A stretch of DNA of 64,000 nt from a virus, in the IMG/VR virus record IMGVR_UViG_3300044629_000431, positions 1 through 64,000 of that record; one strand, 5' to 3'. Positions 47,433 to 63,507 of the stretch are shown here, piece by piece (position 1 is the first letter of the stretch; every line of letters starts with the position of its first letter). Both the position numbers and the translations under genes were made by a program. A model generated the notes under the pieces. It was given only the letters and a program-made list of their open reading frames with translations, did no database searches and was not told where the DNA came from.

Positions 47433-49361
47433 TTATTTCCTCTCTAGTTCTCCGTTAGAGTAGCTTGATGTATAGTAATCTCTTGTAAAAGTAACCCCAG
47501 AGATATCCTCTCCAGAAGAAATGACATCCTTAACCATATTTATGGTGCTATCTGAAATACTAAAACTTAAATATAGGTCACTTAAACCAACAACATCATT
47601 TGATTCTGGATATGCTTGAACCTCAATAATATTATTTTCTTTTTCTGTTGATATGATATTAATTGTGTTTATGGTAATTTCACCTTTGGTATAATCAATA
47701 ACCCCAGCAGAAGAAACTAAAACTCGATAACTTCCATCTGCATTTCTTTTAACGACAGATAGAACTCCTTTTCCACTACCATCTAACTCACCAGTTCCTG
47801 GAATTGTGTTTGGTGTATCAGTGAAATGAACCATATCTGGTTCATTGCTAATATAAAAACCAGTACTCTTAATATTATATCCGTCACAATTGATGTGAAA
47901 CTTATTACCAAAGCACAACTCATACTGTGCAAACTGATTTAATAATGCTTTCAGATTTCTACGTACTCTTACCTTCGTGATATTTGAAGTAATTGATCTA
48001 TCTGCATTATCAATAACTTGAAGTATTTTACTATATTTGAATCTTCCACCAAACTTATTCAAGTCAATGGAAGAAGCATAAGTATTCAATGCATTTGTAA
48101 CTGTGGTCTTTAAGTTATCTACGCTTGAAACTTGAGGTGCATTGTAGTAAATTGAGGAGTCAATCTCAACATACAATACTTTCAGATCGACAATTTCTTG
48201 GTTGATACCACTCAAAGAGTATTGCTTGAGTTTTGTTAGTATATTTCCCTTATCAAAGTCTGATAGATAGTCTCCATTTTTTGGTTTGATACTAATCAGA
48301 ACTTTTCCAAACTGTGGTGGATCTAACTCTTCTCCACCGACAACAGAGACAGACTCGGTGTTTGGATATATTTGCTGAATAATTGCCTCATAGTCTCTAG
48401 CAGTTACTGCTCTGTACTGAGCAGAATAGAGTCTTGGTGCAAAATATTTGACAGATGATACAGGTTCAATGTCACCACCATTCATTGCCTTCTGAATAGT
48501 AGTCATTGTTACTGAACTAGAAGGAATCGCAACGTTATTACTTGCGTCTCTTAATGAACCAGAGAAACTAAACTCAGATGGTCCATTACCTTCTTTTCCA
48601 TCAGTCACAATATAAGTGACAGTAACAACAGAACTGTTCTCTAACTTTTTACCAAACAGTCCGTCACCAAATAGAATTTCATACTTTTCGTCCTGAACTT
48701 CCTGAAGAAGATAAATTTCAGAAGTTCTTTCAACTCCAATGATATTATCGACTTTTGAGTATTCTCTTCCAAGACCACTATCGGAAGGTCCCTTTACATA
48801 AACAACAATGGTTGAAGTATCAATGAATGAGTTATCAAGAATAAAACGTTGATCCAGAGAACCATCTACAACAAATTGCTTTGTCAAGAACGTTCCCTGA
48901 TACACTTCAATTGGTGCATCTGTCGTACCAAATGTGGCAACTCCACCACTGATAGTGGTAGAGACGTTTTCTGGTATTGAGAAGGTATATGTGCTCTGTT
49001 CTGCCGTTCCAACACACACCAGACCCGCCTGCAAGGTCAATGTGGGACTTGTTGAGGTAGTTGGTACGTTAATAGTTACGTGCGCTCTTGCCGCTGTTCT
49101 AGAGCGTGGTGTGTAACCAATATTTCTTGCCAGTGAAACAACATTTTCTCTGAGAGTTGCAGAGTCCAGAAAGGACTCATTCACAATCATATTTGAGTTA
49201 AATGCTGTAATATATGTGTTATATGCTAACGTATCGATCAGAACAGAAAAGTTTGAACCCTCAAAGTCAAAGTCTGTAAAGTTGGAGTTCGCACGAAGAT
49301 AATCCTTGATGGATGTCTTGATCTGATCAAAATCGAGGTTGGTAAATTTAGTGAAAGGCAT
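47433..49361 (-). CDS. g6: Baseplate wedge protein gp6
   Basis: LDFDQIK, FTDFDFEGS, ESFLDSA.LR.NVVS and RAVTARDY motifs. Confidence 0.95.
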   Translation of the reverse strand: MPFTKFTNLDFDQIKTSIKDYLRANSNFTDFDFEGSNFSVLIDTLAYNTYITAFNSNMIVNESFLDSATLRENVVSLARNIGYTPRSRTAARAHVTINVPTTSTSPTLTLQAGLVCVGTAEQSTYTFSIPENVSTTISGGVATFGTTDAPIEVYQGTFLTKQFVVDGSLDQRFILDNSFIDTSTIVVYVKGPSDSGLGREYSKVDNIIGVERTSEIYLLQEVQDEKYEILFGDGLFGKKLENSSVVTVTYIVTDGKEGNGPSEFSFSGSLRDASNNVAIPSSSVTMTTIQKAMNGGDIEPVSSVKYFAPRLYSAQYRAVTARDYEAIIQQIYPNTESVSVVGGEELDPPQFGKVLISIKPKNGDYLSDFDKGNILTKLKQYSLSGINQEIVDLKVLYVEIDSSIYYNAPQVSSVDNLKTTVTNALNTYASSIDLNKFGGRFKYSKILQVIDNADRSITSNITKVRVRRNLKALLNQFAQYELCFGNKFHINCDGYNIKSTGFYISNEPDMVHFTDTPNTIPGTGELDGSGKGVLSVVKRNADGSYRVLVSSAGVIDYTKGEITINTINIISTEKENNIIEVQAYPESNDVVGLSDLYLSFSISDSTINMVKDVISSGEDISGVTFTRDYYTSSYSNGELERK

Positions 49362-49362
49362 T

Positions 49363-49764
49363 TTATCTTGTTGCCTCTAATATGAATGTAAACGCTTGTG
49401 TCGGAACATCTTGTCCAATAATATCAAATATTACGGTTACATTGAATGTATTCTCATCGGGTGATGGTTCAACATCCACTCGTGTATTTGTAACACGTGG
49501 TTCAAAGTTTCGAATCGTTGTAAGAATCTGGTCCTCAATAATTGCCGCAGTACCATAGTCAACAAATTCAAACAGACTTGAGCGTACTTCAGAACCCAAC
49601 AGGGAGTTAAAGAATCTCTCTGTTGGGATTGTTTCGACTAAATTTCTGACGGAACGACGAATTGCATTCTCATTCTTAAGAATTGGCAGATCCTTTGTAA
49701 CAGGATGAGGATCGAAGGACAAACTAATGTCCTTGAAGGCTCTTGATACTCTGGTAACTGCCAT
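49363..49764 (-). CDS. g25: Baseplate protein gp25
   Basis: AIRRSVRNLV.T...ERFF and I..FEPRV motifs; ATAAATA at 49787-49793. Confidence 0.93.
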   Translation of the reverse strand: MAVTRVSRAFKDISLSFDPHPVTKDLPILKNENAIRRSVRNLVETIPTERFFNSLLGSEVRSSLFEFVDYGTAAIIEDQILTTIRNFEPRVTNTRVDVEPSPDENTFNVTVIFDIIGQDVPTQAFTFILEATR

Positions 49765-51479: not shown

Positions 51480-52235
51480 TCAAATGATTCTTGTTTTTTC
51501 GTGACCAACGCGAACGCGAGGATCACACCAGATTTCAAAGCCTGCTTCCTTTGCATCCAAACAGAACGATACGTCTTCTCCACACATGTCCTGTACTTCA
51601 CCAGACTCAAAGACTTGCATCTTCGGTGCAAACCAAGGATACTTCATCTCAGGATGCTCAAAGACTCCTTTCTTAATCAGCAACCATCCAAAACCTGCAT
51701 AGTCAACAGTAAATGGCTTCCGACGCTTTTGAATCGTTTCTACGGTTTCATGATTCATCACACCACCATTGTTACGGAAGTCTTCCTCTTCCATCCAATG
51801 AGCAACAGATGTCGTGACACCATCTTCGGTTGCATACCAACCAGAAGCAATGTCTTGATCCATCAGAACCAGTTGCCAGAACTTTTCAGTATTGAATACA
51901 ATATCACTATCAATCCAAAGTTGCCAGTCATAGTTCAGTTTCCCATCCCAGGGAACCTGATCAGGACCACGCAGAACATTTGCACCCAGACACTTACAAC
52001 GTGCAAAGTTCACCATCGAACTGTAGTCTTGAGAGATCTGAATGCTTGCACCTGCCTGAACAAGATCAAAGCAGAGTTGTACAAAGTTCTTCAGATACGT
52101 GTAAGAAACACCTCTTCCAGGAAGACAGAATACAACTGACTTTCCTCTGACCATTTCTTTTGCCAAGTTGTAGTCCCATTCCTGTTCTTTTGCTACAACT
52201 GGAGTTTTTGCTTTTACGGTAAATCCTTTAGCCAT
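51480..52235 (-). CDS. GT-A fold glycosyltransferase-like protein
   Basis: WIDSD (DxD) motif, G.GW.LI.K.VFE and GED..FC; sigma70 promoter upstream. Confidence 0.72.
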   Translation of the reverse strand: MAKGFTVKAKTPVVAKEQEWDYNLAKEMVRGKSVVFCLPGRGVSYTYLKNFVQLCFDLVQAGASIQISQDYSSMVNFARCKCLGANVLRGPDQVPWDGKLNYDWQLWIDSDIVFNTEKFWQLVLMDQDIASGWYATEDGVTTSVAHWMEEEDFRNNGGVMNHETVETIQKRRKPFTVDYAGFGWLLIKKGVFEHPEMKYPWFAPKMQVFESGEVQDMCGEDVSFCLDAKEAGFEIWCDPRVRVGHEKTRII

Positions 52236-52258
52236 AGAGTTGATAAATTTACATTCAT

Positions 52259-52287
52259 ATCATACAGTATTATCTATGTAAAGTCAA
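52259..52287 (-). promoter_or_regulatory. sigma70-like promoter TTGACT-17-TATGAT
   Basis: Near-consensus boxes at exact 17-bp spacing, upstream of the glycosyltransferase-like gene. Confidence 0.7.
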
Positions 52288-52445
52288 GCAGAGAGTTCTT
52301 GAAAACTTAAGTCTTCTTTGCGGTAGTTTCCAATCAATTCTACAACGTGATTTAACATATCCCAGGTTTGATGAAAGTCTGTTTCAGTAAGATCTTCATA
52401 GATGCATTTCTCTTGAACGTAAATGCAGTAATGCTTTTCATTCAT
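52284..52445 (-). CDS. Hypothetical 53-aa protein (MNEKHYCIYVQEKCIYEDLTETDF...)
   Basis: Translated by hand; paralog-like to 51281-51478. Confidence 0.6.
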   Translation of the reverse strand: MNEKHYCIYVQEKCIYEDLTETDFHQTWDMLNHVVELIGNYRKEDLSFQELSA

Positions 52446-52611
52446 CACGTTCACTTAGAACAACCTCATCACCTTCTATTTTAACACATATCTCAGTATC
52501 TTCATACCATGAGAGTTCATTGATGATTGCTTCTGGTATATTAATAAAGTACTCACCAGTAATTGGATCGACTTGTAGGGGTTGAAAAAATTCTCCGGAG
52601 TTTTTCTTCAT
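52438..52611 (-). CDS. AbrB/MazE-like small DNA-binding protein (start MKKNSGE)
   Basis: GEYFINIPE.I.NEL.W.EDTEI.VKIEGDEVVL matches the swapped-hairpin pattern. Confidence 0.6.
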   Translation of the reverse strand: MKKNSGEFFQPLQVDPITGEYFINIPEAIINELSWYEDTEICVKIEGDEVVLSERDE

Positions 52612-52831
52612 TGAATGTATTATATGATTCGATTTTGTTTTTTTATATAGTACTTTTATACCTTTGATTATATCTCCGGGAAATTTTGAATTCGATGAAT
52701 ATTGATCGCTCGTTTTGGGTCGTTTATAGCTTACAGGGACCCAGAGGATTATAAAACGCCCCCACGCGCCCCGCGCCACGGGGACGCGGCGGGCGGGGGA
52801 ACTGCTGCCCCCCGCACGAACGCACAAGGCG

Positions 52832-53023
52832 TCACCAGGACGGCAGCGCCTCCTGTGCCTCCTGGGCGTGGGTCTCTGAATACTGGGCGGCGATGGCGGT
52901 AGCGGGCAACCCCCAGTGAATGTAGGCGGAGGGGCGGGAACCGTTCTTCAGCTGGTCAGCACGGGAGACCCACTTGATCTGACGGGTCTGGAGGTCAGAG
53001 CACATGCAGAGGGGGAAGCGCAT
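52832..53023 (-). CDS. Small early-region protein
   Basis: Preceded by a TAGGAT -10 box (53047-53052) and a GTTCAACCGACACCCG leader. Confidence 0.6.
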   Translation of the reverse strand: MRFPLCMCSDLQTRQIKWVSRADQLKNGSRPSAYIHWGLPATAIAAQYSETHAQEAQEALPSW

Positions 53024-53064
53024 CGGGTGTCGGTTGAACTGAGAGTATCCTACAGGGTCAGGGG

Positions 53065-53436
53065 TCAGATGGCAAGGGCATCATCGATCCGATCCATCAG
53101 GCGGTCACGGGCAGCGGCGCGACGGTCGGCAGCATACTGGGCAGCAGCGGCGGCAGCGTTGGCATCCTTATCCCCGACCCACTGGCGACCCAGAGAGTTG
53201 ACGGGGTTGAGCGTCCCCATGCGACCAGCACCGATAGCAATGTCACCCGACCCGACGTAAGAACCCTTACCAGCGTCGTGAGTCCCCAGAGCAGAGCGAC
53301 CCGAAGAATTGGTTTTGGTCAGAGCAGAGCGGCGGGTCTTACGGGCGGCAGACTTGAGCACCTTCACCTTAGGGGTCAGACCGTTGGCAGCGAGGTCAGC
53401 AGCGATGGCGGTCAGGTTGGCGGTCGAGCGGGTCAT
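53065..53436 (-). CDS. Basic Ala-rich early protein (start MTRSTANL)
   Basis: Promoter TGC-TACAAT (-10 at 53461-53466) and CAAACGACCC leader. Confidence 0.7.
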   Translation of the reverse strand: MTRSTANLTAIAADLAANGLTPKVKVLKSAARKTRRSALTKTNSSGRSALGTHDAGKGSYVGSGDIAIGAGRMGTLNPVNSLGRQWVGDKDANAAAAAAQYAADRRAAARDRLMDRIDDALAI

Positions 53437-53480
53437 GGGTCGTTTGTTTGAACTGAAAGTATTGTAGCAGGGGGGTCGGG

Positions 53481-53660
53481 TCAGTCGCGGTCGCTGATGT
53501 GCCAGATGCCCCACTGTCCATCCTGCTGGTTGCGAACCCTGATCGCTTCCTGCCGTTGCTGCCAATCATAGGTCTGCCATGCGTCAACCGTAGCGGCAAC
53601 GTCCGAAGGGTCGGAACCGTAGCAGGCATTCCAGATCAGGTTCGCTTCGTCAAGGGTCAT
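53481..53660 (-). CDS. Small early protein (start MTLDEANLIW)
   Basis: TGC-TACAAT (-10 at 53681-53686) and CAAACGACCC leader. Confidence 0.65.
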   Translation of the reverse strand: MTLDEANLIWNACYGSDPSDVAATVDAWQTYDWQQRQEAIRVRNQQDGQWGIWHISDRD

Positions 53661-53691
53661 GGGTCGTTTGCTTTGGGAGTATTGTAGCAGA

Positions 53692-53865
53692 TCAGAGGGC
53701 ATTCAGTTGGGAGGCGATCCGTTCCGCTTCGGCAGGGGTAGCGCAGTGGGCGGCATCATACCAGACCCCAGGCATCAGGCGGCGGCGGATTCGGGCGCCG
53801 TCCGTTCTATAGGTGCCAGGCGCCTTAAGGATCTTATCCAGCAGGGGGAGGCGGGGCAGGAGCAT
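53692..53865 (-). CDS. Small early protein (57 aa, MLLPRLPLLDK...)
   Basis: Translated by hand; TATACT -10 at 53889-53894. Confidence 0.55.
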   Translation of the reverse strand: MLLPRLPLLDKILKAPGTYRTDGARIRRRLMPGVWYDAAHCATPAEAERIASQLNAL

Positions 53866-53935
53866 CGGAGGTCGTCTGAACTGGAATCAGTATAGAAGCA
53901 AAAGGGAGGGGGGATGCCCCTCCGTTGTGCCACTA

Positions 53936-54103
53936 TCAGAATTGGATGGGTTCGGCAGTCGGTGCGCTGATGGCAGCATAGTGGGCGGCGGCATCAGCGA
54001 TGTTTGCGTCTGCCACGTCGTCAGCGATGGAGTCCAGCACCTGCAGGAGTTCGGCACCGTTGGCGGCGCGGTTCAGAAGAGCGGTAGCAAGGTCAGCGGT
54101 CAT
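53936..54103 (-). CDS. Small acidic Ala-rich early protein (MTADLATALLNRAANGAELL...)
   Basis: Its stop codon lies inside palindrome 53926-53949. Confidence 0.65.
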   Translation of the reverse strand: MTADLATALLNRAANGAELLQVLDSIADDVADANIADAAAHYAAISAPTAEPIQF

Positions 54104-54140
54104 GATGGAAGGAAGGTAAAGGGTCAAAGGGTAGGAAGGG

Positions 54141-54317
54141 TCAGGCAGCGATCAGCAGGTCATTCTCCCAGCGGGCAGCGGTCAGGATCTCATCGTAGAT
54201 CCGATCGGCAACCTGGTCAACGTAGCGGCGCTCATCCGCTTTCAGGATGGCAGCGCGGCACTGAGCGGCGATCTCATCAATGTTCAGAGCGCGGTCGGTG
54301 CGGGGGTTGTAGCGCAT
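54141..54317 (-). CDS. Small early protein (58 aa, MRYNPRTDRAL...ENDLLIAA)
   Basis: Translated by hand; TACACT -10 at 54342-54347 and CAAACGACCC leader. Confidence 0.65.
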   Translation of the reverse strand: MRYNPRTDRALNIDEIAAQCRAAILKADERRYVDQVADRIYDEILTAARWENDLLIAA

Positions 54318-54389
54318 GGGTCGTTTGCGGTTGACTTGTTAAGTGTAAGGGGTCAGGTGGGGGGTTGGTGCCCCCCTTGTGCCAGTTGA

Positions 54390-54566
54390 TCAATCGGCAT
54401 AGAGGCGCTGGAAGTCGTCCACAAACTCCCGTGCCTCATCGCCTGACATACGGGAGATCATCTCAGTGGCGATGGTCTCCCAGGAGTAGAGGTCTGCCAG
54501 ATCATAGATGGCGGACCGTGCCTGAGAGGCGGTCAGTTCGGAGGCGGTGATCTGAGCGTAGGTCAT
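54390..54566 (-). CDS. Small early protein (58 aa, MTYAQITASEL...MSGDEAREFVDDF)
   Basis: Translated by hand; TACAAT at 54590-54595; stop inside a palindrome. Confidence 0.65.
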   Translation of the reverse strand: MTYAQITASELTASQARSAIYDLADLYSWETIATEMISRMSGDEAREFVDDFQRLYAD

Positions 54567-54608
54567 GGGGTTTCGGTTGAACTGAAAGTATTGTAAGGGG
54601 TCAGGGGG

Positions 54609-54809
54609 TCAGGCGGCGGTGCTTTGTGCCACTTCCTCATCTGGCACACCGTGAAGAATGTCGATCATCTGCTGGTGGTAAGCATCAGCTTTGACCACTA
54701 CATTGTGAGACTCAGTTACATCCTCAATGTCATACTTTGTGAGTTCCAAAGTATTAATCACAGTGGAGAGGAGATCAGTCAGTGCCTCAATCTTTTGAGC
54801 GTCAGTCAT
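54609..54809 (-). CDS. Small acidic early protein (MTDAQKIEAL...)
   Basis: TACAAT at 54833-54838. Confidence 0.65.
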   Translation of the reverse strand: MTDAQKIEALTDLLSTVINTLELTKYDIEDVTESHNVVVKADAYHQQMIDILHGVPDEEVAQSTAA

Positions 54810-54852
54810 CAGATCCCTTTGCGGTTGATCCTATTGTAGGGGGTGGCGCCCC

Positions 54853-55104
54853 TCAGAACGCCACCAACTGATCCAGATCCCATTGTGGCACACGGGCGAC
54901 CTCATCGATCACGTAGTTGCCGCGATGCTTGCGAATCCAGGCGTTAACGTGCTTCGTGGTGGTGGCGCTCCACTGGTAAGCGGTGCGGATCCAACCCTTG
55001 CCAGGGACGATGGCGGCGACGGGTTGATCATAGGAGAACAGGATGCAGGTCCCGTCTGCCAGGGTCACCTCGGTTTGGTTGCTGCCGACTTGCTGGACTT
55101 TCAT
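54853..55104 (-). CDS. Early protein (83 aa, MKVQQVGSNQTEV...LFSYDQPVAA...SATTTKHVN.W)
   Basis: TACAAT at 55129-55134; carries an SY...S.TT..H motif typical of small phage proteins. Confidence 0.7.
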   Translation of the reverse strand: MKVQQVGSNQTEVTLADGTCILFSYDQPVAAIVPGKGWIRTAYQWSATTTKHVNAWIRKHRGNYVIDEVARVPQWDLDQLVAF

Positions 55105-55139
55105 GTGGTTCGCTTGTGAACTGAGAGTATTGTAAGGGG

Positions 55140-55307
55140 TCAGCGGGCGATCAGGTCGCCTGCAGTGTACAGTGCCTGAGCTGTCACATGGCGGACGGGG
55201 CGAATCGGTTCCCAGAGCAACCACAGCAGCAGAGCACCAACGGTCAGGCGGAGCATGGTAGCACGGTGGAAGTCTGCGGAGCGGGAACGGGTCAGGGCTT
55301 TGATCAT
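55140..55307 (-). CDS. Small putative membrane protein (55 aa, MIKALTRSRS...VGALLLWLLW)
   Basis: Translated by hand; ATGA overlap with the upstream ORF. Confidence 0.6.
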   Translation of the reverse strand: MIKALTRSRSADFHRATMLRLTVGALLLWLLWEPIRPVRHVTAQALYTAGDLIAR

Positions 55308-55450
55308 GGTGCCAGGTGAGCGGGGGAACCACAGGAGCGGTAGAATTCTACCATGCGTTCCGCTTCGTCAAGGGTGGGGAACCATTGCGACCGCCACTCA
55401 CAATTGTTGTAGGGGACCTGGTAGCGGACTTCGTAGCGGGTCAGTGCCAT
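55304..55450 (-). CDS. Small protein (48 aa, MALTRYEVRYQVPYNNCEWRSQWFPTLDEAERMVEFYRSCGSPA)
   Basis: Translated by hand; CATACT -10 at 55531-55536. Confidence 0.65.
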   Translation of the reverse strand: MALTRYEVRYQVPYNNCEWRSQWFPTLDEAERMVEFYRSCGSPAHLAP

Positions 55451-55631
55451 GGGTCGATTGAAATGCTTTGGGGTGGGCAGTCCTCACCTCTGCCCTTGGG
55501 GGGTCCTCTTTCCTCCCCCCTGGTGAACATAGTATGGCACGGGCTGGGGGTCAGATCAACGGGGTCTGTGCCAGTTCAAAAAGTGGCACAGGGTGGCTGG
55601 TCAGGGGGTGCTGGGGCTCTATGATAAGGTC

Positions 55632-55705
55632 ACAAGCGAAGGAGGGGCGGGGTATCCCTGAGGATGAAAAAGGTCGCCACGGGAGCAGCCTTAAATTATA
55701 AAAAG
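55632..55705 (+). ncRNA. Candidate small RNA, copy A (ends approximate)
   Basis: Plus-strand TATGAT (55620-55625) lies 29 bp from palindrome 55567. Core is 44/59 identical to 58680-58738 with no shared reading frame. Confidence 0.45.
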
Positions 55706-55711
55706 CATCGC

Positions 55712-55738
55712 AAAAAAGGGAGGGCGTCACCGCCACCC
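55712..55738 (-). terminator. Probable intrinsic terminator
   Basis: GGGTGGCG-GTGA-CGCCCTCCC imperfect hairpin followed by T6. Confidence 0.5.
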
Positions 55739-55903
55739 CAGAAAGGTGGCAGGGTTGCCATAGTCTGCGATCACAATCCCATTGCAACGGATCTCACAGT
55801 AACCGTAATCCTCAGACAGACTGTAGCACAGATCGTAGGCGCGATCCTCATCAGTGGTCGTGTTCTCCCAGGGAGCGGAGGGGCAGATCACATCGTAACG
55901 CAT
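55727..55903 (-). CDS. Small early protein (58 aa, MRYDVICPSAPWE...)
   Basis: TATACT -10 at 55931-55936. Confidence 0.65.
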   Translation of the reverse strand: MRYDVICPSAPWENTTTDEDRAYDLCYSLSEDYGYCEIRCNGIVIADYGNPATFLGWR

Positions 55904-55979
55904 TCGGTTTGGTTCGTTTGGTATGAAACCAGTATAAGGGGTCAGGCGGCAGGATCGGGGGTGGCAGTGTGCCACCTAT

Positions 55980-56876
55980 TCAACTGGCACACTGAAAGCG
56001 TCCGCTGTTGAAGTTATGATAAGCGAAGACCTCACGATTGACCAGTTTGAACATACCAAACTCATTGGTCATGACATAACCTTCGGCATCAATTCGGTTG
56101 CCGTTAATGTAAGCGGCAGGACCATCATTGCGGCAGAGGAACAAACAATCATCTTTGATAGACTTCACCAATGCCCACAGACGCAGCAGGTTAATGTCAC
56201 AATCAAAGTCTTTGGGGTTGACTTCTTCACCAGCACGAATGCAGGCATTGATCTGTTGTTTGATCTTTGTCGCTTCCTTATCACTCACAAAGGTGGCAGT
56301 GGTTGCCATTTGACGGGCAAAGTTGCAGACCTCTTCAACATCAGCGAACGACTCCTGATTGTGCAGGATGTATGCATTCGGTTTCACGAACTTCACGTGC
56401 TCAGTATCATTCCAGATAGCACGGTCAGGGAATGCAACAGCGTCACGAAGATCGCTCTCAGCATAATAGCAAGTGTGCGGAGCGATGATGATGCTTTGCG
56501 TTACAATGTCACCGAACTGATAGGTAATGGTGTTGGAAGTGTACTCATTCAGTCCACCAAACCCGATGAAGTCTGCCTGATAGATTGTCTCAGTACGGGG
56601 CAGACTATCAAAGCAACAGTGCAGAATCTGTGCAACGTTGCCATCATAAAATGCATCTACCTCTTCGTGAGAGTGAGCAATACGAATCTTTTTCTTGTTA
56701 AAGACTGCTTTGGTGCCCACGAAAAATGTACCCGTGGCAGGGTCAATACCCCACACGATAGCAGGAGCACCATCAATCTTCACAGAAAGATGACCCTTTG
56801 CAGTGAACCAATCAAGAACCGAAAGGTCACCCGTCAGGATGGTATCTTCGGGGTGTTCGAGGTGTGTGTTTTTCAT
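55980..56876 (-). CDS. Conserved phage protein with ligase/nucleotidyltransferase-like motifs (DUF6267-like)
   Basis: HLEHPED, SVKIDGAPA (KxDG), YQADF, EGYV and KLVNR motifs. Confidence 0.65.
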   Translation of the reverse strand: MKNTHLEHPEDTILTGDLSVLDWFTAKGHLSVKIDGAPAIVWGIDPATGTFFVGTKAVFNKKKIRIAHSHEEVDAFYDGNVAQILHCCFDSLPRTETIYQADFIGFGGLNEYTSNTITYQFGDIVTQSIIIAPHTCYYAESDLRDAVAFPDRAIWNDTEHVKFVKPNAYILHNQESFADVEEVCNFARQMATTATFVSDKEATKIKQQINACIRAGEEVNPKDFDCDINLLRLWALVKSIKDDCLFLCRNDGPAAYINGNRIDAEGYVMTNEFGMFKLVNREVFAYHNFNSGRFQCAS

Positions 56877-56937
56877 ACTGTTAGTATTGCACGAAAAAAG
56901 GAGGTCTGCAAGGGGGTGTGTGACAGTTCCTCAACTG

Positions 56938-57297
56938 TCACAAGTCATCCAGATTTACATTTTCCCAACCACTAAAATCAGGTTCTACATCACCCAGAAG
57001 TTGCTGAGCATAATATAACGTGCCACGTTCAAAGTTTCTATCACGAAAATCATCAGTTTGCCCACGATGCTTATACCAACTGAGAACACCGTGACCAACA
57101 TCAGAACGACTCACAATCGCCATATAATGATCATCACACCACACTTCATTCTCTTCTGCCATCTCACGCAATGCGGTGAGAGTTGCACAACACCAGTTGC
57201 GTTCTAGAAAGTTACCATTCTCATCAAAACCACATTTAGGATCATCACCTTCCCAATCTTTCACGAATGTGGAACAACGGGGGCATTTGTAAGTCAT
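56938..57297 (-). CDS. Cys-rich hypothetical protein
   Basis: CPRC...C.F....NWCC motif; has its own promoter cassette. Confidence 0.65.
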   Translation of the reverse strand: MTYKCPRCSTFVKDWEGDDPKCGFDENGNFLERNWCCATLTALREMAEENEVWCDDHYMAIVSRSDVGHGVLSWYKHRGQTDDFRDRNFERGTLYYAQQLLGDVEPDFSGWENVNLDDL

Positions 57298-57364
57298 CAG
57301 ATCCCTTTGTTTGTGATCTTAGTATTGCACGAAAAAAGGGGGGACGCAACCCCCCTTGTGCCAC

Positions 57365-57580
57365 TTATTCAACTGTCACACTCTCAATCAGTTCTTGAAT
57401 CACATCTTCATCATACACATACGAAATCTCAGTGAGAACATCCTCCTCAGATTTACCTGCGAAGTTCTCAACAATCGTATCATACGCAAACTGAATCAAA
57501 CACTTAACGTCCATCTCATCAACAATACGCTCAGCGTAGTTTTCAATGAGTTGGTCAAGTTGTTGGGAAGTGAGAGTCAT
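57365..57580 (-). CDS. Small acidic protein (Y..RIVDEMD.K.L family)
   Basis: 71-aa ORF; stop inside palindrome 57357. Confidence 0.65.
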   Translation of the reverse strand: MTLTSQQLDQLIENYAERIVDEMDVKCLIQFAYDTIVENFAGKSEEDVLTEISYVYDEDVIQELIESVTVE

Positions 57581-57589
57581 GAGTTTGTA

Positions 57590-57769
57590 TCAGTTAGAAG
57601 GAAAGTTACGGCAGACAGCATCACATAGCGTCTTCACCAGTTCCTGTTGTTCTTCATTGTATTCATCACCCCAAGTGTCATAAAAAAAACTTTCGATGAT
57701 ACAATCAATGTCCTCCATGAGTTGTTCACGAGCAGACAACATTTCCAGTTTAGGATTCAATTCAGGCAT
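57590..57769 (-). CDS. Small acidic protein (59 aa, MPELNPKLEML...LCDAVCRNF)
   Basis: Translated by hand; TGATG coupling with the upstream ORF. Confidence 0.6.
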   Translation of the reverse strand: MPELNPKLEMLSAREQLMEDIDCIIESFFYDTWGDEYNEEQQELVKTLCDAVCRNFPSN

Positions 57770-57894
57770 CAGTAATCGTAGTTAGCGTTCAGGTACTCAT
57801 TGACATCGAACTTCTCATCACGAAGTTCAGGAATGTCAAGGTCAAAAATCTCACCGGGCATGTCTTGGATTTCAGACCAGAGTTCATCAAACAT
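57769..57894 (-). CDS. Very acidic 41-aa protein (MFDELWSEIQDMPGEIFDLD...)
   Basis: Translated by hand; promoter TTGCAA-17-TACATT. Confidence 0.6.
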   Translation of the reverse strand: MFDELWSEIQDMPGEIFDLDIPELRDEKFDVNEYLNANYDY

Positions 57895-57973
57895 GGTTTG
57901 TCTCTCAGGGACGAATGTAATGTATCAGGGTCTGGGGGGCATTGCAACCCCCCTTGTGCCACTTGTCAGACTG

Positions 57974-58267
57974 TCACACCAAACAGAATGCGTGGTTTTG
58001 AACAACATTTACCATGACACATTCCTGACGAAACTGTTTCTTATACTCGTCTGCAATGATCAACACTTCATCCAACATTTCCTCAGAGATAACAGTGAGA
58101 ATACGAACCTTTTCGTATTCACCATTCCAACAACCATAACCCTCAGTGAGTGTAAACCCCGTCAGGTTTTCTTGAATGATTTCTTTCAAAAACGAAGAGA
58201 ACATTACTGCATTCACTTCACCTGCATCAGGAATGTTTGCACCGAAGTAAACAGTGGTGGTGAACAT
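57974..58267 (-). CDS. DUF3574-like protein, candidate phage SAM lyase
   Basis: FG.NIP, GFT....G.W.G..E and IA.EYK.QF.Q.CV motif pattern. Confidence 0.55.
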   Translation of the reverse strand: MFTTTVYFGANIPDAGEVNAVMFSSFLKEIIQENLTGFTLTEGYGCWNGEYEKVRILTVISEEMLDEVLIIADEYKKQFRQECVMVNVVQNHAFCLV

Positions 58268-58335
58268 TGAAGTTTCTCAACTGTGGTTAGAATACACGAA
58301 ACCAGGGACCTTGCAACATACCCTGTGACACTTTC

Positions 58336-58551
58336 TCAACTGGCACTCTTCATGTAGATACGGTCCATAATGCACAATGAAAGGTCAAAACGAATGTCAT
58401 CATCAACATCACCCATCTTTGCCTGAATAGCATCAGGAATGATCTCTTGCATAAAGTCTACCCAACGTTCATCAGCAAAAATATAATCAACCACTTCAGG
58501 GGTCAAAGCATCAGCGAGTTTCTGAATAGTTTGGTTGGAGAGAGTCATCAA
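58336..58551 (-). CDS. Small early protein (LS..TI.KLADAL..EV family)
   Basis: Stop inside palindrome 58324; has its own promoter cassette. Confidence 0.65.
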   Translation of the reverse strand: MMTLSNQTIQKLADALTPEVVDYIFADERWVDFMQEIIPDAIQAKMGDVDDDIRFDLSLCIMDRIYMKSAS

Positions 58552-58671
58552 AACCTCACGAACAAATGTACACTAACCCATCACCTGGTAGGTTGCAACC
58601 ACCCTTGTGCCACTAGACAAACTGGCACAAGACCCCTTGATCGGGACCATCTGCCGTGATATCTTATAACA

Positions 58672-58740
58672 AATTCAATGAGGGGAGAGGTATCCCTGTA
58701 GACGAAAATACATCGCCACCGCTCCTGCCATAAAATATTC
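58672..58740 (+). ncRNA. Candidate small RNA, copy B (ends approximate)
   Basis: Plus-strand TTGATC-17-TATCTT (58637-58665), with the -10 box 30 bp from palindrome 58606; homologous to copy A. Confidence 0.45.
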
Positions 58741-58770
58741 ATTCTCAATAAGGCGCGCCTTATTGAGAAT
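58741..58770. promoter_or_regulatory. Perfect 30-bp palindrome ATTCTCAATAA-GGCGCGCC-TTATTGAGAAT
   Basis: Seen directly; a second copy of the arms lies at 59466-59497. Confidence 0.7.
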
Positions 58771-58801
58771 TATATCATGTGCCAATATTTAAACTGGCAC
58801 A

Positions 58802-58954
58802 TTACTCGAACGGATCGAACTCTTGTACCCTACAATGGATATCTTCACCTGGTTCGAGTTCGAGTAAGTCACGCCAATTAATATTATCTAGATCTAGATC
58901 ATCATAACACATGATGTCTAGTGTTACCTGTATGATGCGTTTTTGTGCTAGCAT
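58802..58954 (-). CDS. Small acidic protein (50 aa, MLAQKRIIQVTLDIMCYDDLDLDNINWRDLLEL...)
   Basis: Translated by hand; the stop abuts palindrome 58778. Confidence 0.6.
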   Translation of the reverse strand: MLAQKRIIQVTLDIMCYDDLDLDNINWRDLLELEPGEDIHCRVQEFDPFE

Positions 58955-58960
58955 AGGTGT

Positions 58961-59301
58961 CTCGTCTAGATGTATGTGTCTAGTCTAGATTGTATCATGC
59001 ATAATGACGATATGCAAGACTTTCGTAATCTTGCCCATCTCGTGCATAATCCTCGTCGAGATCTAGTGCATCTTGTGCATAATACTCGTCGAGATCGTAT
59101 GAATGATCGTTACAGTATGTGTAGTCGAGATCGTAGTCGTCGTACATAAGCTCGTCGAGATCTTTGAAACGCATGTGTATTGTAGCATAAAGCTCGACGA
59201 GATGCAAGATATACTAGATGTAGATCTCGACGAGATTCATAACAATATATATGTGTTCTCGTCTAGAATTGTGTGCTTCTCGACACATGTTCTCGACTAG
59301 A
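58961..59301. repeat. Ten copies of the 10-mer CT(C/A)G(T/A)C(G/T)AGA, mostly ~33 bp apart
   Basis: Starts at 58961, 58980, 59052, 59085, 59121 (one mismatch), 59151, 59193, 59226, 59258 and 59292. Confidence 0.8.
58995..59147 (-). CDS. Asp/Tyr-rich 50-aa protein (MYDDYDLDYTY...)
   Basis: Promoter TTGCAT-17-TACAAT at 59179-59207. Confidence 0.55.
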   Translation of the reverse strand: MYDDYDLDYTYCNDHSYDLDEYYAQDALDLDEDYARDGQDYESLAYRHYA

Positions 59302-59409
59302 TTCTATCACGAACTCATAAGAATGTCAAGTCCTTATAAGTCTTGTGTGGGTCTCGGAGCATTTTCGCGGGGGGGCGGACTTGACAAACTCCGCGTCTTA
59401 TGATACGCT
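59301..59409. promoter_or_regulatory. Divergent sigma70 promoters
   Basis: Minus strand TTGACA-17-TAGAAT (59301-59329); plus strand TTGACA-17-TACGCT (59381-59409). Confidence 0.7.
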
Positions 59410-59636: not shown

Positions 59637-60413
59637 ATGGAAAGAGGCATCATCTATCTCATTCTCAACAAGCAAACAGGTGAAAAATACGTCGGAAACA
59701 CCACACTTGCGATGAATAAAGAATGGGTACACCACATCGACCGTTCTAAAAGAATGTCATCTGAACCTTTACATAAGGCATTCAGACAATATGGTGTGCA
59801 TAACTTTATGATCAAAGAGTTAGATGAATACGATGATACCTGTTTAGAGAACAAACTCAATGAATGGATAGACAAATATAAACCTGAATACAATCTTATT
59901 GTTACTAATGTAGAAAAAACGGTAATCTCAATGCAGGAAAAGCGGGAACCCGTAGGGTTGAGCGATAGCGAGATACCTAAACCTAAAAAAGAAAGAACAT
60001 ATAAGTCATCACCACACCTTATACAATGGAATGAAGAGAATAGAGGAGATGGTAAACACTTTGGTATTAAAATAAGAGGTAAGAACTTAGATACTGGTTT
60101 ATGTACTGACTATGAAAATGCAAGAGTCGCAGCAGAACAAGTGACAGGTAATCCGCGAAACAATTCTAACATTCTACTTGCTGCCAAAACTGGTAGAACT
60201 GCATACGGATACAAATGGCAATTATTAGAAGAGAAGAAGAATAAAAGATCGGTATTTGGTGTCCATAAAAAAACGGGGTTGATTGGTCCCCGTTATGAAA
60301 GTATTAACGCTGCTGTTCGTGCCTTTGAATGTACTGATAAACACAGCATTCTCAAAAGTCTGAAGAACCCTGGTAAGTACAGTTGGAAGGGTTACTTTTG
60401 GTTCTTTGGTTGA
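59637..60413 (+). CDS. GIY-YIG (Seg-like) homing endonuclease with NUMOD1-like C-terminal modules
   Basis: GIIY...KYVG.T, H...S, LHKAFRQYG..NF and YN motifs, plus TAYGYKW and YESINAAVR repeats. It is the only well-supported plus-strand CDS. Confidence 0.8.
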   Translation: MERGIIYLILNKQTGEKYVGNTTLAMNKEWVHHIDRSKRMSSEPLHKAFRQYGVHNFMIKELDEYDDTCLENKLNEWIDKYKPEYNLIVTNVEKTVISMQEKREPVGLSDSEIPKPKKERTYKSSPHLIQWNEENRGDGKHFGIKIRGKNLDTGLCTDYENARVAAEQVTGNPRNNSNILLAAKTGRTAYGYKWQLLEEKKNKRSVFGVHKKTGLIGPRYESINAAVRAFECTDKHSILKSLKNPGKYSWKGYFWFFG

Positions 60414-63302: not shown

Positions 63303-63507
63303 TCAGAAGGACGGCACCACGTCGTTCCGTAGACCAGTTTGCGAAGTGTCCATCTGCTCAAACACCGTGTAAAGTTTGTTATACAGTGCTGGCACACTTC
63401 CATATTCTCTTGCGATTTGATGTTCTTCCCTGACTCCAAGTAACTGCAGTGCAGATAGAATCACACCAATTTCATGAACATTCAGTTGTACAGTTGTTTC
63501 AGTCATT
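63303..63507 (-). CDS. Hypothetical protein (LNVHEIGVILSAL; start approximate, MTETT)
   Basis: ORF within the operon. Confidence 0.55.

What the first reader, a model, noticed from the sequence alone, without database searches (positions are those of the whole stretch)
53498..58801. Array of mini-gene cassettes each headed by a 24-bp palindrome at fixed distance from a sigma70 promoter
Seen: 14 copies of TGTG(C/A)CA-N10-TG(G/T)CACA; the best copy is TGTGACAGTT-CCTC-AACTGTCACA at 56919. Thirteen lie 29-31 bp upstream of a minus-strand -10 box (TACAAT, TATACT, TACACT, AATACT and similar), just upstream of the -35 position, which is weak (TTGCNN) or absent. A degenerate copy at 63330 keeps the 29-bp spacing. 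Each unit reads palindrome, promoter, short leader, then 1-3 tiny ORFs. Inference: a dimeric activator site defining an immediate-early regulon. The factor must be host-encoded or injected; the outer TGTG/CACA resembles CRP-family half-sites but with longer spacing. Established analog: PeSL promoter cassettes of T4-type phages. I recall a palindrome being reported at early promoters of marine cyanomyoviruses, so novelty needs a literature check; I know of no identified binding factor.
Basis: partly seen in the sequence, partly recalled or inferred. Interest (0 to 1): 0.8.

Follow-up and report, generated by a model that had tools for sequence, protein, structure and literature searches.

The report
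Cyanophage early-promoter cassettes with upstream palindrome
A lake virus of cyanobacteria starts about fourteen small early transcription units with one promoter type, a 24-base two-armed protein docking site a fixed 29-30 bases before a -10 box; this promoter type is shared by T4-like cyanophages, and its arms are the same as those of a host regulator's (PlmA) known DNA site, which gives a testable candidate for the unknown switch.

Summary
TGTGMCA-N10-TGKCACA occurs 8 times exactly (0 expected), and 13-15 times with decayed copies. All copies lie at 53.5-64.8 kb of a 146-kb uncultured lake cyanomyovirus, in the small-gene region upstream of the gp25/gp6 baseplate genes.

A -10 box sits 29-31 nt downstream in 13 units. 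In 451 copies from over 100 related viral contigs, strong -10 boxes pile up at offsets 29-30 (282 against about 4 background).

The arms show no base-pair covariation, so this is a DNA site for a protein, not a hairpin. Syn9 and ACG-2014f carry the same element in the same region. From memory, unverified, this is the "novel regulatory element" of early genes reported by Doron et al. 2016.

Host genomes lack the phage arrangement. The two 10-nt arms nevertheless equal the arms of CGRE1, the site bound by host GntR regulator PlmA/PMM1637 at yfr2 promoters, in swapped order. The phages encode no GntR. The PlmA DNA-binding domain is 97-100% identical across marine and freshwater hosts.

Population variants break inside the repeated cassettes, as with PeSLs.

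Earlier notes of this scan reached the same reading, including the PlmA link, on other genomes. I re-tested the arm identity here. The activator remains unproven.

The parts
58778..58801 (.). Exact palindrome copy. It has no minus-strand -10, but TACAAT lies 29 nt downstream on the plus strand, facing the repeat region and the only plus-strand gene (GIY-YIG-like, 59637-60413).
58606..58629 (.). Exact palindrome copy with promoters on both sides. Minus strand: TACATT at 35 nt, leading to ORF 58336-58548. Plus strand: TTGATC-17-TG-TATCTT at 30 nt, leading into the non-coding element.
58324..58347 (-). Palindrome copy with 1 mismatch. -10 TATTCT at 29 nt; leads to ORF 57974-58267 (DUF3574, weak match to the S-AdoMet lyase family).
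57955..57978 (-). Exact copy with mixed arms. Followed by a G6-TTGCAA-C6 hairpin and TG-TACATT at 30 nt. Heads a three-ORF unit at 57365-57894.
57357..57380 (-). Exact copy with mixed arms. Followed by a terminator hairpin (57336-57357) with the -35 TTGCGT in its loop, then a T-run and TG-AATACT at 30 nt. Leads to ORF 56938-57297.
56919..56942 (-). Best copy, with perfect 10-nt arms. TTGCAG -35 and TG-AATACT -10 at 30 nt. Leads to the DUF6267 gene at 55980-56876.
55968..55991 (-). Exact copy. TATACT at 31 nt; leads to ORF 55727-55903. Many related contigs lose homology exactly at this palindrome.
55567..55590 (.). Exact copy with promoters on both sides. Minus strand: TG-CATACT at 30 nt, leading to ORFs 54853-55450. 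Plus strand: TATGAT at 29 nt, leading into the non-coding element.
54869..54892 (-). Decayed copy (2 mismatches) in the GC-rich block. TACAAT at 30 nt; leads to ORF 54609-54809.
54625..54648 (-). Exact copy in the GC-rich block. TACAAT at 29 nt; leads to ORF 54390-54566.
54378..54401 (-). Decayed copy (2 mismatches). Followed by a G6/C6 hairpin and TACACT at 30 nt; leads to ORFs 53936-54317.
53926..53949 (-). Half-site copy with only the promoter-proximal arm. Followed by a terminator-like hairpin at 53905-53923 and TATACT at 31 nt.
53498..53521 (-). Decayed copy (3 mismatches). TG-TACAAT at 31 nt; leads to ORF 53065-53436.
63330..63353 (-). Strongly decayed copy (6 of 12 fixed positions). TATAAT at 29 nt. 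Its promoter and leader are homologous to those of the exact copy at 64800, just outside the window.
55628..55706 (+). Conserved non-coding element, copy 1, downstream of the plus-strand promoter of palindrome 55567.
58667..58745 (+). Conserved non-coding element, copy 2, downstream of the plus-strand promoter of palindrome 58606. A 13-bp-stem hairpin at 58741-58770 follows it.

Best explanation
The array is the early-gene promoter set of a T4-like cyanophage (Kyanoviridae-type, from lake water).

Each unit is a regulatory cassette made of:
- a 24-bp dyad, TGTGMCASTT-N4-AASTGKCACA;
- 6-7 nt later a weak -35 (TTGnnn), in some units placed in the loop of a G/C terminator hairpin;
- after a 16-18-nt spacer, a -10 box, often TGn-extended;
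- a 25-nt leader with a ribosome-binding site;
- 1-3 small genes.

With the start site inferred 7 nt after the -10, the dyad spans about -66 to -43.

The dyad is a double-stranded DNA site for a two-fold symmetric protein that helps host sigma70-type RNA polymerase use promoters with poor -35 boxes. It can serve promoters on either side.

The most likely protein, which is inferred and not shown, is the host's single PlmA-type GntR regulator. The two 10-nt arms are identical to the arms of its proven operator CGRE1 at yfr2 sRNA promoters, but in swapped order.

Because the cassettes are repeated, they also act as short homologies at which genes are gained, lost and swapped, as at PeSLs.
For: Shown here:
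- The motif is far above chance and confined to the small-gene region.
- Strong -10 boxes sit at offsets 29-30 in 282 of 451 copies, against a background of about 4 per offset.
- 61% of 572 copies have a -35/-10 pair at the fixed offset, against 5.5% of random positions.
- There is no pairing covariation in 348 copies from 106 loci. Pair 5-20 is Watson-Crick in 0.52 of copies, with 0.53 expected. Pair 8-17 is Watson-Crick in 0.27, with 0.43 expected.
- Hairpin energies range from -13.7 to -3.0 kcal/mol, and mixed-arm copies fold no better than shuffles.
- ACG-2014f has 29 copies, all in gene orientation, 27 of them between the tail-fibre genes and gp25/gp6. Syn9 has decayed copies before gp55, 63, 68, 73, 75, 78 and 79.
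- The phage arrangement is absent from 5 marine Synechococcus. In 201 host-family genomes there were 9 single hits, mostly on tiny MAG contigs.
- Six of 13 Cyano-1/yfr2 genes in marine Synechococcus are preceded by AACTGGCAC-A-GTGCCAGTT, or a variant in which the degenerate arm position takes the other base. This is the CGRE1 site that PMM1637 binds in pull-down and EMSA experiments (PMC6191309).
- The host-type arrangement occurs 0-1 times in phage DNA, against 354 copies of the phage type.
- No GntR domain is present in G000, ACG-2014f or Syn9.
- Each host genome searched has one strong GntR gene (plus sub-threshold hits in three of the five). Its 62-aa DNA-binding domain is 97-100% identical between marine and freshwater picocyanobacteria.
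- Cassette-level variants have joints in repeated cassette sequence. One joint, 56880 to 57319, shares 21 nt on both sides. Other contigs diverge at or inside palindromes.
Against: - There is no transcription start or expression-timing data for this phage. RNA runs were available only as contigs.
- Arm order and spacing differ from CGRE1. The host site is R.L with half-site centres about 10 bp apart; the phage site is L-N4-R with centres about 14 bp apart. One dimer would have to bind two geometries.
- No host promoter uses the phage arrangement.
- Freshwater hosts, which fit this lake phage, show no full CGRE1 at yfr2 promoters. The paper itself says CGRE1 seems restricted to marine strains.
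- Positions 8 and 17 tend to carry the same base (G..G or C..C), which breaks the dyad.
- Activator versus repressor is not resolved.
- The four decayed copies in the GC-rich block still have good -10 boxes, so the dyad may not be essential.
Confidence: 0.8

Rival explanations
1. The dyad is bound by a phage protein, either carried in the virion or made early, and not by host PlmA. It might be an activator delivered with the DNA, or a repressor that shuts off early promoters at the early-to-middle switch. On this reading the likeness to CGRE1 arms is mimicry or chance.
For: The phage arrangement is absent from host genomes, as expected for a phage-private operator. Arm order and spacing differ from CGRE1. 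T4-like cyanophages lack Alt/Mod and MotA/AsiA (PMC2984593), so some other control of early promoters must exist.
Against: No DNA-binding domain was found in 30 ORFs of the 50-67 kb region by Pfam, or in 10 by PHROGs. No GntR is present in three phage genomes. A full 10-of-10 arm identity with a proven host operator, including the same degenerate position, is unlikely by chance.
Confidence: 0.3
2. The palindrome acts as an RNA hairpin at the 3' end of the upstream transcript (a terminator, stabiliser or RNase site), or as an extruded DNA cruciform, rather than as a duplex protein site.
For: It lies at the 3' end of the upstream ORF and often holds that ORF's stop codon. Symmetric copies fold at -10 to -14 kcal/mol. 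In PeSLs a stem-loop sits in this place (PMC4122927).
Against: There is no compensatory covariation in 348 copies, and pair 8-17 is anti-complementary. Mixed-arm copies fold no better than shuffles, and mixed arms are the rule in ACG-2014f. No U-run follows the palindrome. Where termination is needed, a separate G/C hairpin with a T-run follows. The distance to the -10 is fixed to within 1 nt.
Confidence: 0.05
3. The palindrome is chiefly a recombination or mobility signal: the target of a site-specific recombinase or homing nuclease that moves gene cassettes. On this reading the constant distance to the promoter is inherited with the cassette.
For: Homology blocks with related contigs end in palindromes 3.8 times more often than expected by space. 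Variant contigs diverge inside palindromes at 55573, 57963 and 57964. A GIY-YIG-like gene lies nearby.
Against: The spacing is kept where spacer sequences are unrelated. Joints also fall in the -10/T-run part (21 shared nt) and at plain gene borders, which fits ordinary homologous recombination. The HSP test is partly circular, because the loci were chosen for holding the motif. No recombinase was found in the region.
Confidence: 0.1

Closest known systems
Early-gene 'novel regulatory element' of T4-like cyanophages (Doron et al. 2016, ISME J 10:1437; Syn9, P-TIM40). Cited from memory of the abstract; the paper is not held here.
   Same: It lies in the same genome region and synteny: the small-gene block upstream of gp25/gp6. 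Syn9 carries decayed copies of this dyad at the same 29-30-nt distance before gp55-gp79. The element is abundant across cyanomyovirus contigs.
   Different: I could not confirm that the published motif is this dyad. This instance comes from an uncultured lake phage. To my knowledge no binding factor has been published.
PeSL promoter-early stem-loop cassettes of T4-type phages (Arbiol et al. 2010, PMC2839356; Comeau et al. 2014, PMC4122927)
   Same: Repeated composite terminator and sigma70-type early-promoter units lie in a hyperplastic region of small ORFans. The RB49 type also has a Gn-loop-Cn stem. Indels have breakpoints in the repeated cassettes.
   Different: PeSLs have no separate upstream dyad. 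Here the G/C hairpin is optional and holds the -35 in its loop. The conserved part is a 24-bp protein-type site. The -35 is weak rather than near-consensus.
CGRE1, the operator of the PlmA-type GntR regulator PMM1637 at yfr2 sRNA promoters of marine picocyanobacteria (Lambrecht et al. 2018, PMC6191309)
   Same: It has the same two 10-nt arms, TGTGMCAGTT and AACTGKCACA, with the same degenerate position. It lies upstream of or overlapping a sigma70-type promoter, and in the phage it also drives non-coding elements.
   Different: In CGRE1 the arms abut as R.L (21-22 nt). In the phage they are swapped and 4 nt apart (L-N4-R, 24 nt). The two arrangements are mutually exclusive between hosts and phages. 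Their position relative to the start site also differs.
Class I CRP-type activation and UP elements of T4 early promoters
   Same: The site lies upstream of the -35, at about -43 to -66, on promoters with a weak -35. The outer TGTG/CACA recalls CRP half-sites.
   Different: CRP sites are TGTGA-N6-TCACA. Here the spacing is 8 bp wider, the conserved arm is 10 nt long, and the centre is near -54.5, which is not a CRP class I position. UP elements are A/T-rich and not dyads.

Membership tests
Cyanomyovirus early-promoter element (Syn9 type) | Located in the small-gene block upstream of the gp25/gp6 baseplate genes of a T4-like cyanophage | tested here: met
   ORFs at 49363-49764 (133 aa) and 47433-49361 (642 aa) sit in the same position and have similar sizes to the annotated gp25/gp6 wedge genes of Syn9 and ACG-2014f. 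All genes are on the minus strand. Their identity was assigned by synteny only and was not searched.
Cyanomyovirus early-promoter element (Syn9 type) | The same sequence motif at a fixed distance from a -10 box in reference phages | tested here: met
   ACG-2014f has 29 copies. Syn9 has 7 decayed copies. Across 451 copies the -10 peaks at 29-30 nt.
Cyanomyovirus early-promoter element (Syn9 type) | Transcription starts and early timing shown by RNA-seq | not testable with these tools
   Only RNA contigs were available. The Doron et al. paper is not held.
PeSL | A stem-loop terminator directly fused to an early sigma70 promoter | tested here: inconclusive
   A G/C hairpin with a T-run is present at 57357 and 53926. 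Hairpins at 57955 and 54378 lack the T-run. Other units have none.
PeSL | Repeats in a hyperplastic region flanking variable ORFans, with indels at the repeats | tested here: met
   Joints 54608 to 54853 and 56880 to 57319 (21 nt shared), many skips in DNA run X1, and loose ends at palindromes. HSP ends are enriched 3.8-fold in palindromes.
PlmA/CGRE1 regulon | Half-site sequence of CGRE1 | tested here: met
   Both 10-nt arms are identical, including the M/K position.
PlmA/CGRE1 regulon | CGRE1 arrangement: arms abutting as a 21-22-nt inverted repeat | tested here: not met
   The phage arms are swapped and 4 nt apart. The host-type arrangement occurs 0-1 times in phage DNA. The phage type is absent from hosts.
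PlmA/CGRE1 regulon | Binding by PlmA/PMM1637 | not testable with these tools
   This needs EMSA or pull-down. Supporting context only: there is no phage GntR, and the host DNA-binding domain is 97-100% conserved.
CRP/FNR-type site | TGTGA-N6-TCACA geometry (16-bp core) | tested here: not met
   The spacing is TGTG-N16-CACA, and the conserved positions extend over 10 nt per arm.

The most novel reading that the evidence does not exclude
T4-like cyanophages switch on their first genes by borrowing the host's single PlmA-type GntR regulator, a partner of the PII-PipX nitrogen/energy signalling pair. They do so through a permuted version of its yfr2 operator that exists only in phage DNA. Early infection would then be gated by host nitrogen, light or energy status. 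The repeated operator-promoter cassettes would double as the recombination points that shuffle early genes.
Probability: 0.4. Interest if true: 0.8.

Novelty: new member of a known kind. Interest (0 to 1): 0.55.

Why it matters
T4-like cyanophages kill a large share of the ocean's and lakes' picocyanobacteria. They lack the T4 tools (Alt/Mod, MotA/AsiA) that retarget host RNA polymerase. What reads their early promoters is still an open question.

This window adds a freshwater member and shows the promoter geometry to be very strict. Its main contribution is a concrete candidate that can be tested at the bench. The arm identity with the proven PlmA/PMM1637 operator, the absence of a phage GntR, and a near-invariant host DNA-binding domain together make one EMSA able to support or reject that candidate.

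The population data also show, in natural samples, gene cassettes being lost at these repeats.

Tried and rejected
- Rfam found nothing on the whole window at gathering threshold, and nothing credible on 53-60 kb at E<=5. There are no tRNAs.
- Sigma54 was considered because of TGGCAC...TTGC. The GG-to-GC spacing is 3 bp too long, and a sigma70 -10 sits at fixed distance, so it was rejected (reasoning).
- CRP, NtcA, LexA, HLR1 and CIRCE sites were compared from memory only. None fits.
- Pfam (30 ORFs) and PHROGs (10 ORFs) on the 50-67 kb region found no HTH, RHH or recombinase.
- Literature searches for a published palindrome at cyanophage early promoters found no text. Sullivan 2010, Clokie 2010, Puxty 2018 and Thompson 2016 do not mention it. 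Doron 2016 could not be opened.
- RNA contig depth is higher over 57.2-59.3 kb than over the GC-rich block. Contig depth cannot rank expression, so I did not use it.
- The TTG that lies 7 nt after the proximal arm aligns with the GTTG flank of CGRE1. I regard it simply as the -35 (TTGACA consensus) and draw nothing from the alignment.
- The exact CGRE1 pattern in freshwater hosts gave only 1-mismatch GC-rich hits, close to control.

Full report
WHAT IS THERE

The window is the first 64 kb of a 146,477-bp IMG/VR virus record, about 69% complete. All long genes are on the minus strand. ORFs in the position of the gp25 and gp6 baseplate genes lie at 49363-49764 and 47433-49361, assigned by synteny only. 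They are followed by giant fibre genes. Upstream of them, at 50-76 kb, lies a block of small ORFs. This is the same order as in Syn9 and Synechococcus phage ACG-2014f.

The DNA is found in 17 lake-water metagenomes and 2-3 aquatic metatranscriptomes. It is therefore an uncultured freshwater cyanomyovirus.

CHECK OF THE OBSERVATION

- TGTGMCA-N10-TGKCACA occurs 8 times exactly, with 0 in 100 shuffles.
- There are 13 matches with up to 2 mismatches, against 0.96 expected.
- Decayed copies lie at 53498, 53926 and 63330.
- One more exact copy lies at 64800, and there are none elsewhere in the record.
- On the minus strand a -10 box lies 29-31 nt after the palindrome in 13 units. It lies at 35 nt for 58606. 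Copy 58778 has its -10 on the plus strand instead.
- The -35 is TTGCNN or absent, and a generic sigma70 scan misses nearly all of these promoters.
- Upstream ORFs usually end inside the palindrome.
- In some units a G6/C6 hairpin with a T-run, holding the -35 in its loop, follows the palindrome.

IS IT GENERAL?

ACG-2014f has 29 copies, all in gene orientation. Of these, 27 lie in its small-gene block, one lies about 270 bp before psbA, and one lies elsewhere. Its unit is almost invariant: dyad, N7, T(T/A)GGCA, N17, TGcTATACT, then a conserved leader with a ribosome-binding site.

Syn9 has decayed copies before gp55, 63, 68, 73, 75, 78 and 79.

From these I collected 572 distinct copies.
- 61% have a -35/-10 pair at the fixed offset, against 5.5% of random positions.
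- Without any selection, strong -10 boxes peak at offsets 29 (172 copies) and 30 (110 copies), over a background of about 4.
- A conserted A-T 7-8 nt after the -10 suggests the start site. This places the dyad at about -66 to -43 (inference).

DNA SITE OR HAIRPIN?

In 348 promoter-linked copies from 106 loci the variable arm positions do not covary.
- Pair 5-20 is complementary in 0.52 of copies, with 0.53 expected under independence.
- Pair 8-17 is complementary in only 0.27, with 0.43 expected. G..G and C..C dominate.
- RNA folding gives -13.7 kcal/mol for the one perfect copy. Mixed-arm copies give -3.0 to -3.8, no better than shuffles. Mixed arms are the rule in ACG-2014f.

The conserved feature is therefore the sequence of two inverted 10-nt arms, which points to a site for a symmetric DNA-binding protein. 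Use of both faces supports this: copies 55567 and 58606 have -10 boxes at 29-30 nt on both strands.

In an AT-rich relative (L076), two to seven dyad-plus-TTGACA modules stand in tandem every 57 bp before genes. I have no explanation for this.

WHOSE PROTEIN?

The phage arrangement is not in host genomes.
- Five marine Synechococcus, including WH7803, have 0 exact copies. With one mismatch they have 3, against 2 in the control.
- Among 201 genomes of the host family there were 9 single hits, mostly on tiny MAG contigs with phage-like inner sequence.

Earlier notes of this scan on other genomes pointed to the PlmA-type GntR regulator, and I tested that lead here. Lambrecht et al. 2018 (PMC6191309) showed by pull-down and EMSA that PMM1637 binds CGRE1, a 21-22-nt palindrome at yfr2 sRNA promoters.

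I located Cyano-1/yfr2 genes in five marine Synechococcus. Before six of the 13 I found AACTGGCAC-A-GTGCCAGTT or close variants. Its arms, AACTGKCACA and TGTGMCAGTT, are letter for letter the arms of the phage dyad, with the same degenerate position. The order is swapped, however: the host site is R.L with the arms abutting, and the phage site is L-N4-R.

The two arrangements exclude each other. Phage DNA has 0-1 of the host type against 354 of its own type. Of 61 host-family genomes, 17 carry CGRE1.

G000, ACG-2014f and Syn9 encode no GntR domain. Each host genome searched has one strong GntR gene of about 330 aa. Its 62-aa winged-helix domain is 97-100% identical between marine strains and freshwater Cyanobium or lake MAGs. 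This would explain why a lake phage keeps the same arms, even though freshwater yfr2 promoters show only single arms and no full CGRE1.

This makes PlmA the leading candidate. The different geometry is a real objection, and binding remains untested.

CASSETTES AND SHUFFLING

RNA contigs from lake metatranscriptomes carry variants that skip whole cassettes.
- 54608 to 54853 skips 244 bp. Both ends lie 16-17 bp from palindromes.
- 56880 to 57319 skips 438 bp. The joint lies in 21 nt shared by two identical -10/T-run segments.
- 57580 to 57769 is a third such skip.

One DNA run shows six skips of 151-2790 bp within 53.0-55.8 kb and a seventh, of 1735 bp, from 55609 to 57345. Several contigs diverge inside or at palindromes, at 55573, 57381, 57963 and 57964.

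Homology blocks with related contigs often run exactly from palindrome to palindrome, for example 55968-56942. HSP ends fall in palindromes 3.8 times more often than expected by space. That test is partly circular, because the loci were chosen for holding the motif.

This is the behaviour described for PeSLs (PMC2839356, PMC4122927). It is best explained by ordinary recombination at repeated regulatory cassettes.

COMPARISON AND NOVELTY

From memory, the abstract of Doron et al. 2016 states that a novel regulatory element controls early-gene transcription in Syn9 and P-TIM40, and that it is abundant among T4-like cyanophages. The paper is not held here. No held paper describes the motif. Since Syn9's small-gene block carries this dyad, I think it is the same element.

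The array is thus a new, freshwater member of a known promoter type. It also shares features with PeSLs.

The link to CGRE1/PlmA is, as far as I could find, not in the papers I could read. PMC6191309 mentions phage only in its reference list. The scan has found the link before on other genomes, and I verified the arm identity independently here.

WHAT IS SHOWN AND WHAT IS INFERRED

Shown:
- the copy number and fixed geometry;
- the spread of the element among cyanomyoviruses;
- the lack of hairpin covariation;
- the absence of the phage arrangement from hosts;
- the arm identity with CGRE1;
- the absence of a phage GntR;
- the conservation of the host DNA-binding domain;
- the cassette-level variants.

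Inferred:
- the start sites;
- early timing;
- activation rather than repression;
- PlmA as the factor.

Noticed in passing
window 55628-55706 (+) and 58667-58745 (+); also L010, L053, L080, L082, L095, L107 (two copies), L112, L113, L115, L116, L118, L121, L122: A conserved non-coding element of about 75 nt lies behind the plus-strand promoters of palindromes 55567 and 58606. It has a hairpin, GGGGn-loop-nCCCU, with covariation at 3 of 5 pairs and a G-U pair that favours the plus strand. A conserved single-stranded stretch follows: GACGAAAAU..AUCGCCAC. No Rfam family matches. It is a candidate phage sRNA that runs antisense to the early genes.
   Followed up: partly
window 52000-56000: This block has 52-57% G+C, against 33-40% in the rest of the window. 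Its cassettes have decayed palindromes and a leader of their own (ACTTTCAGTTCAAaC.AAC.ACCC-ATG). DNA contigs of the same lake population skip all or parts of it, for example 53048 to 55839 and 53690 to 55837. It looks like a variable insertion from a GC-richer phage.
   Followed up: partly
L076 1-2800 and L070 (AT-rich IMG/VR contigs): Two to seven tandem modules of the palindrome plus N7 plus TTGACA stand every 57 bp in the intergenic regions before small genes. The upstream modules face away from the gene and have no -10 box. Their function is unexplained; they might be cooperative binding sites or a sink.
   Followed up: partly
window 58741-58770: A perfect 30-bp palindrome, ATTCTCAATAAGGCGCGCCTTATTGAGAAT, lies between palindromes 58606 and 58778. 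It acts as a two-way terminator-like hairpin at the end of the non-coding element. The same pair of palindromes flanking the same hairpin occurs in L010 and L040.
   Followed up: no
window 58887-59330 and 59637-60413 (+): A tract rich in CTCGWCKAGA-type repeats and in GATC and CTAG sites lies upstream of the only plus-strand gene. That gene is a weak GIY-YIG match (E 0.004, below the Pfam cut-off). Palindrome 58778 has its -10 box facing this tract. RNA contig depth is high at 58.8-59.3 kb.
   Followed up: no
G000 64766-65638 (-), L223 766-1638: A D12-class N6-adenine DNA methyltransferase gene has a palindrome-promoter cassette (64800) inside its 3' end. The same order, methyltransferase followed by a palindrome, occurs in Syn9 (gp62/gp63) and ACG-2014f (gene 53, palindrome at 38213).
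   Followed up: partly
window 57974-58267 (-): A 97-aa early ORF matches DUF3574 and, more weakly, the S-adenosylmethionine lyase family (E 7.6e-5, below cut-off). It could be an anti-restriction function.
   Followed up: no
KJ019037.1 171581-171604 (ACG-2014f): One of the two palindrome copies outside that phage's early block lies about 270 bp upstream of psbA. The photosystem gene may therefore share the early promoter type.
   Followed up: no
L225, L226, L229, L233 (marine Synechococcus yfr2 promoters): Besides CGRE1, these host promoters carry a third, isolated TGTGCCA arm 20-30 nt further upstream. This gives an L...R.L layout that loosely recalls the phage L-N4-R.
   Followed up: no
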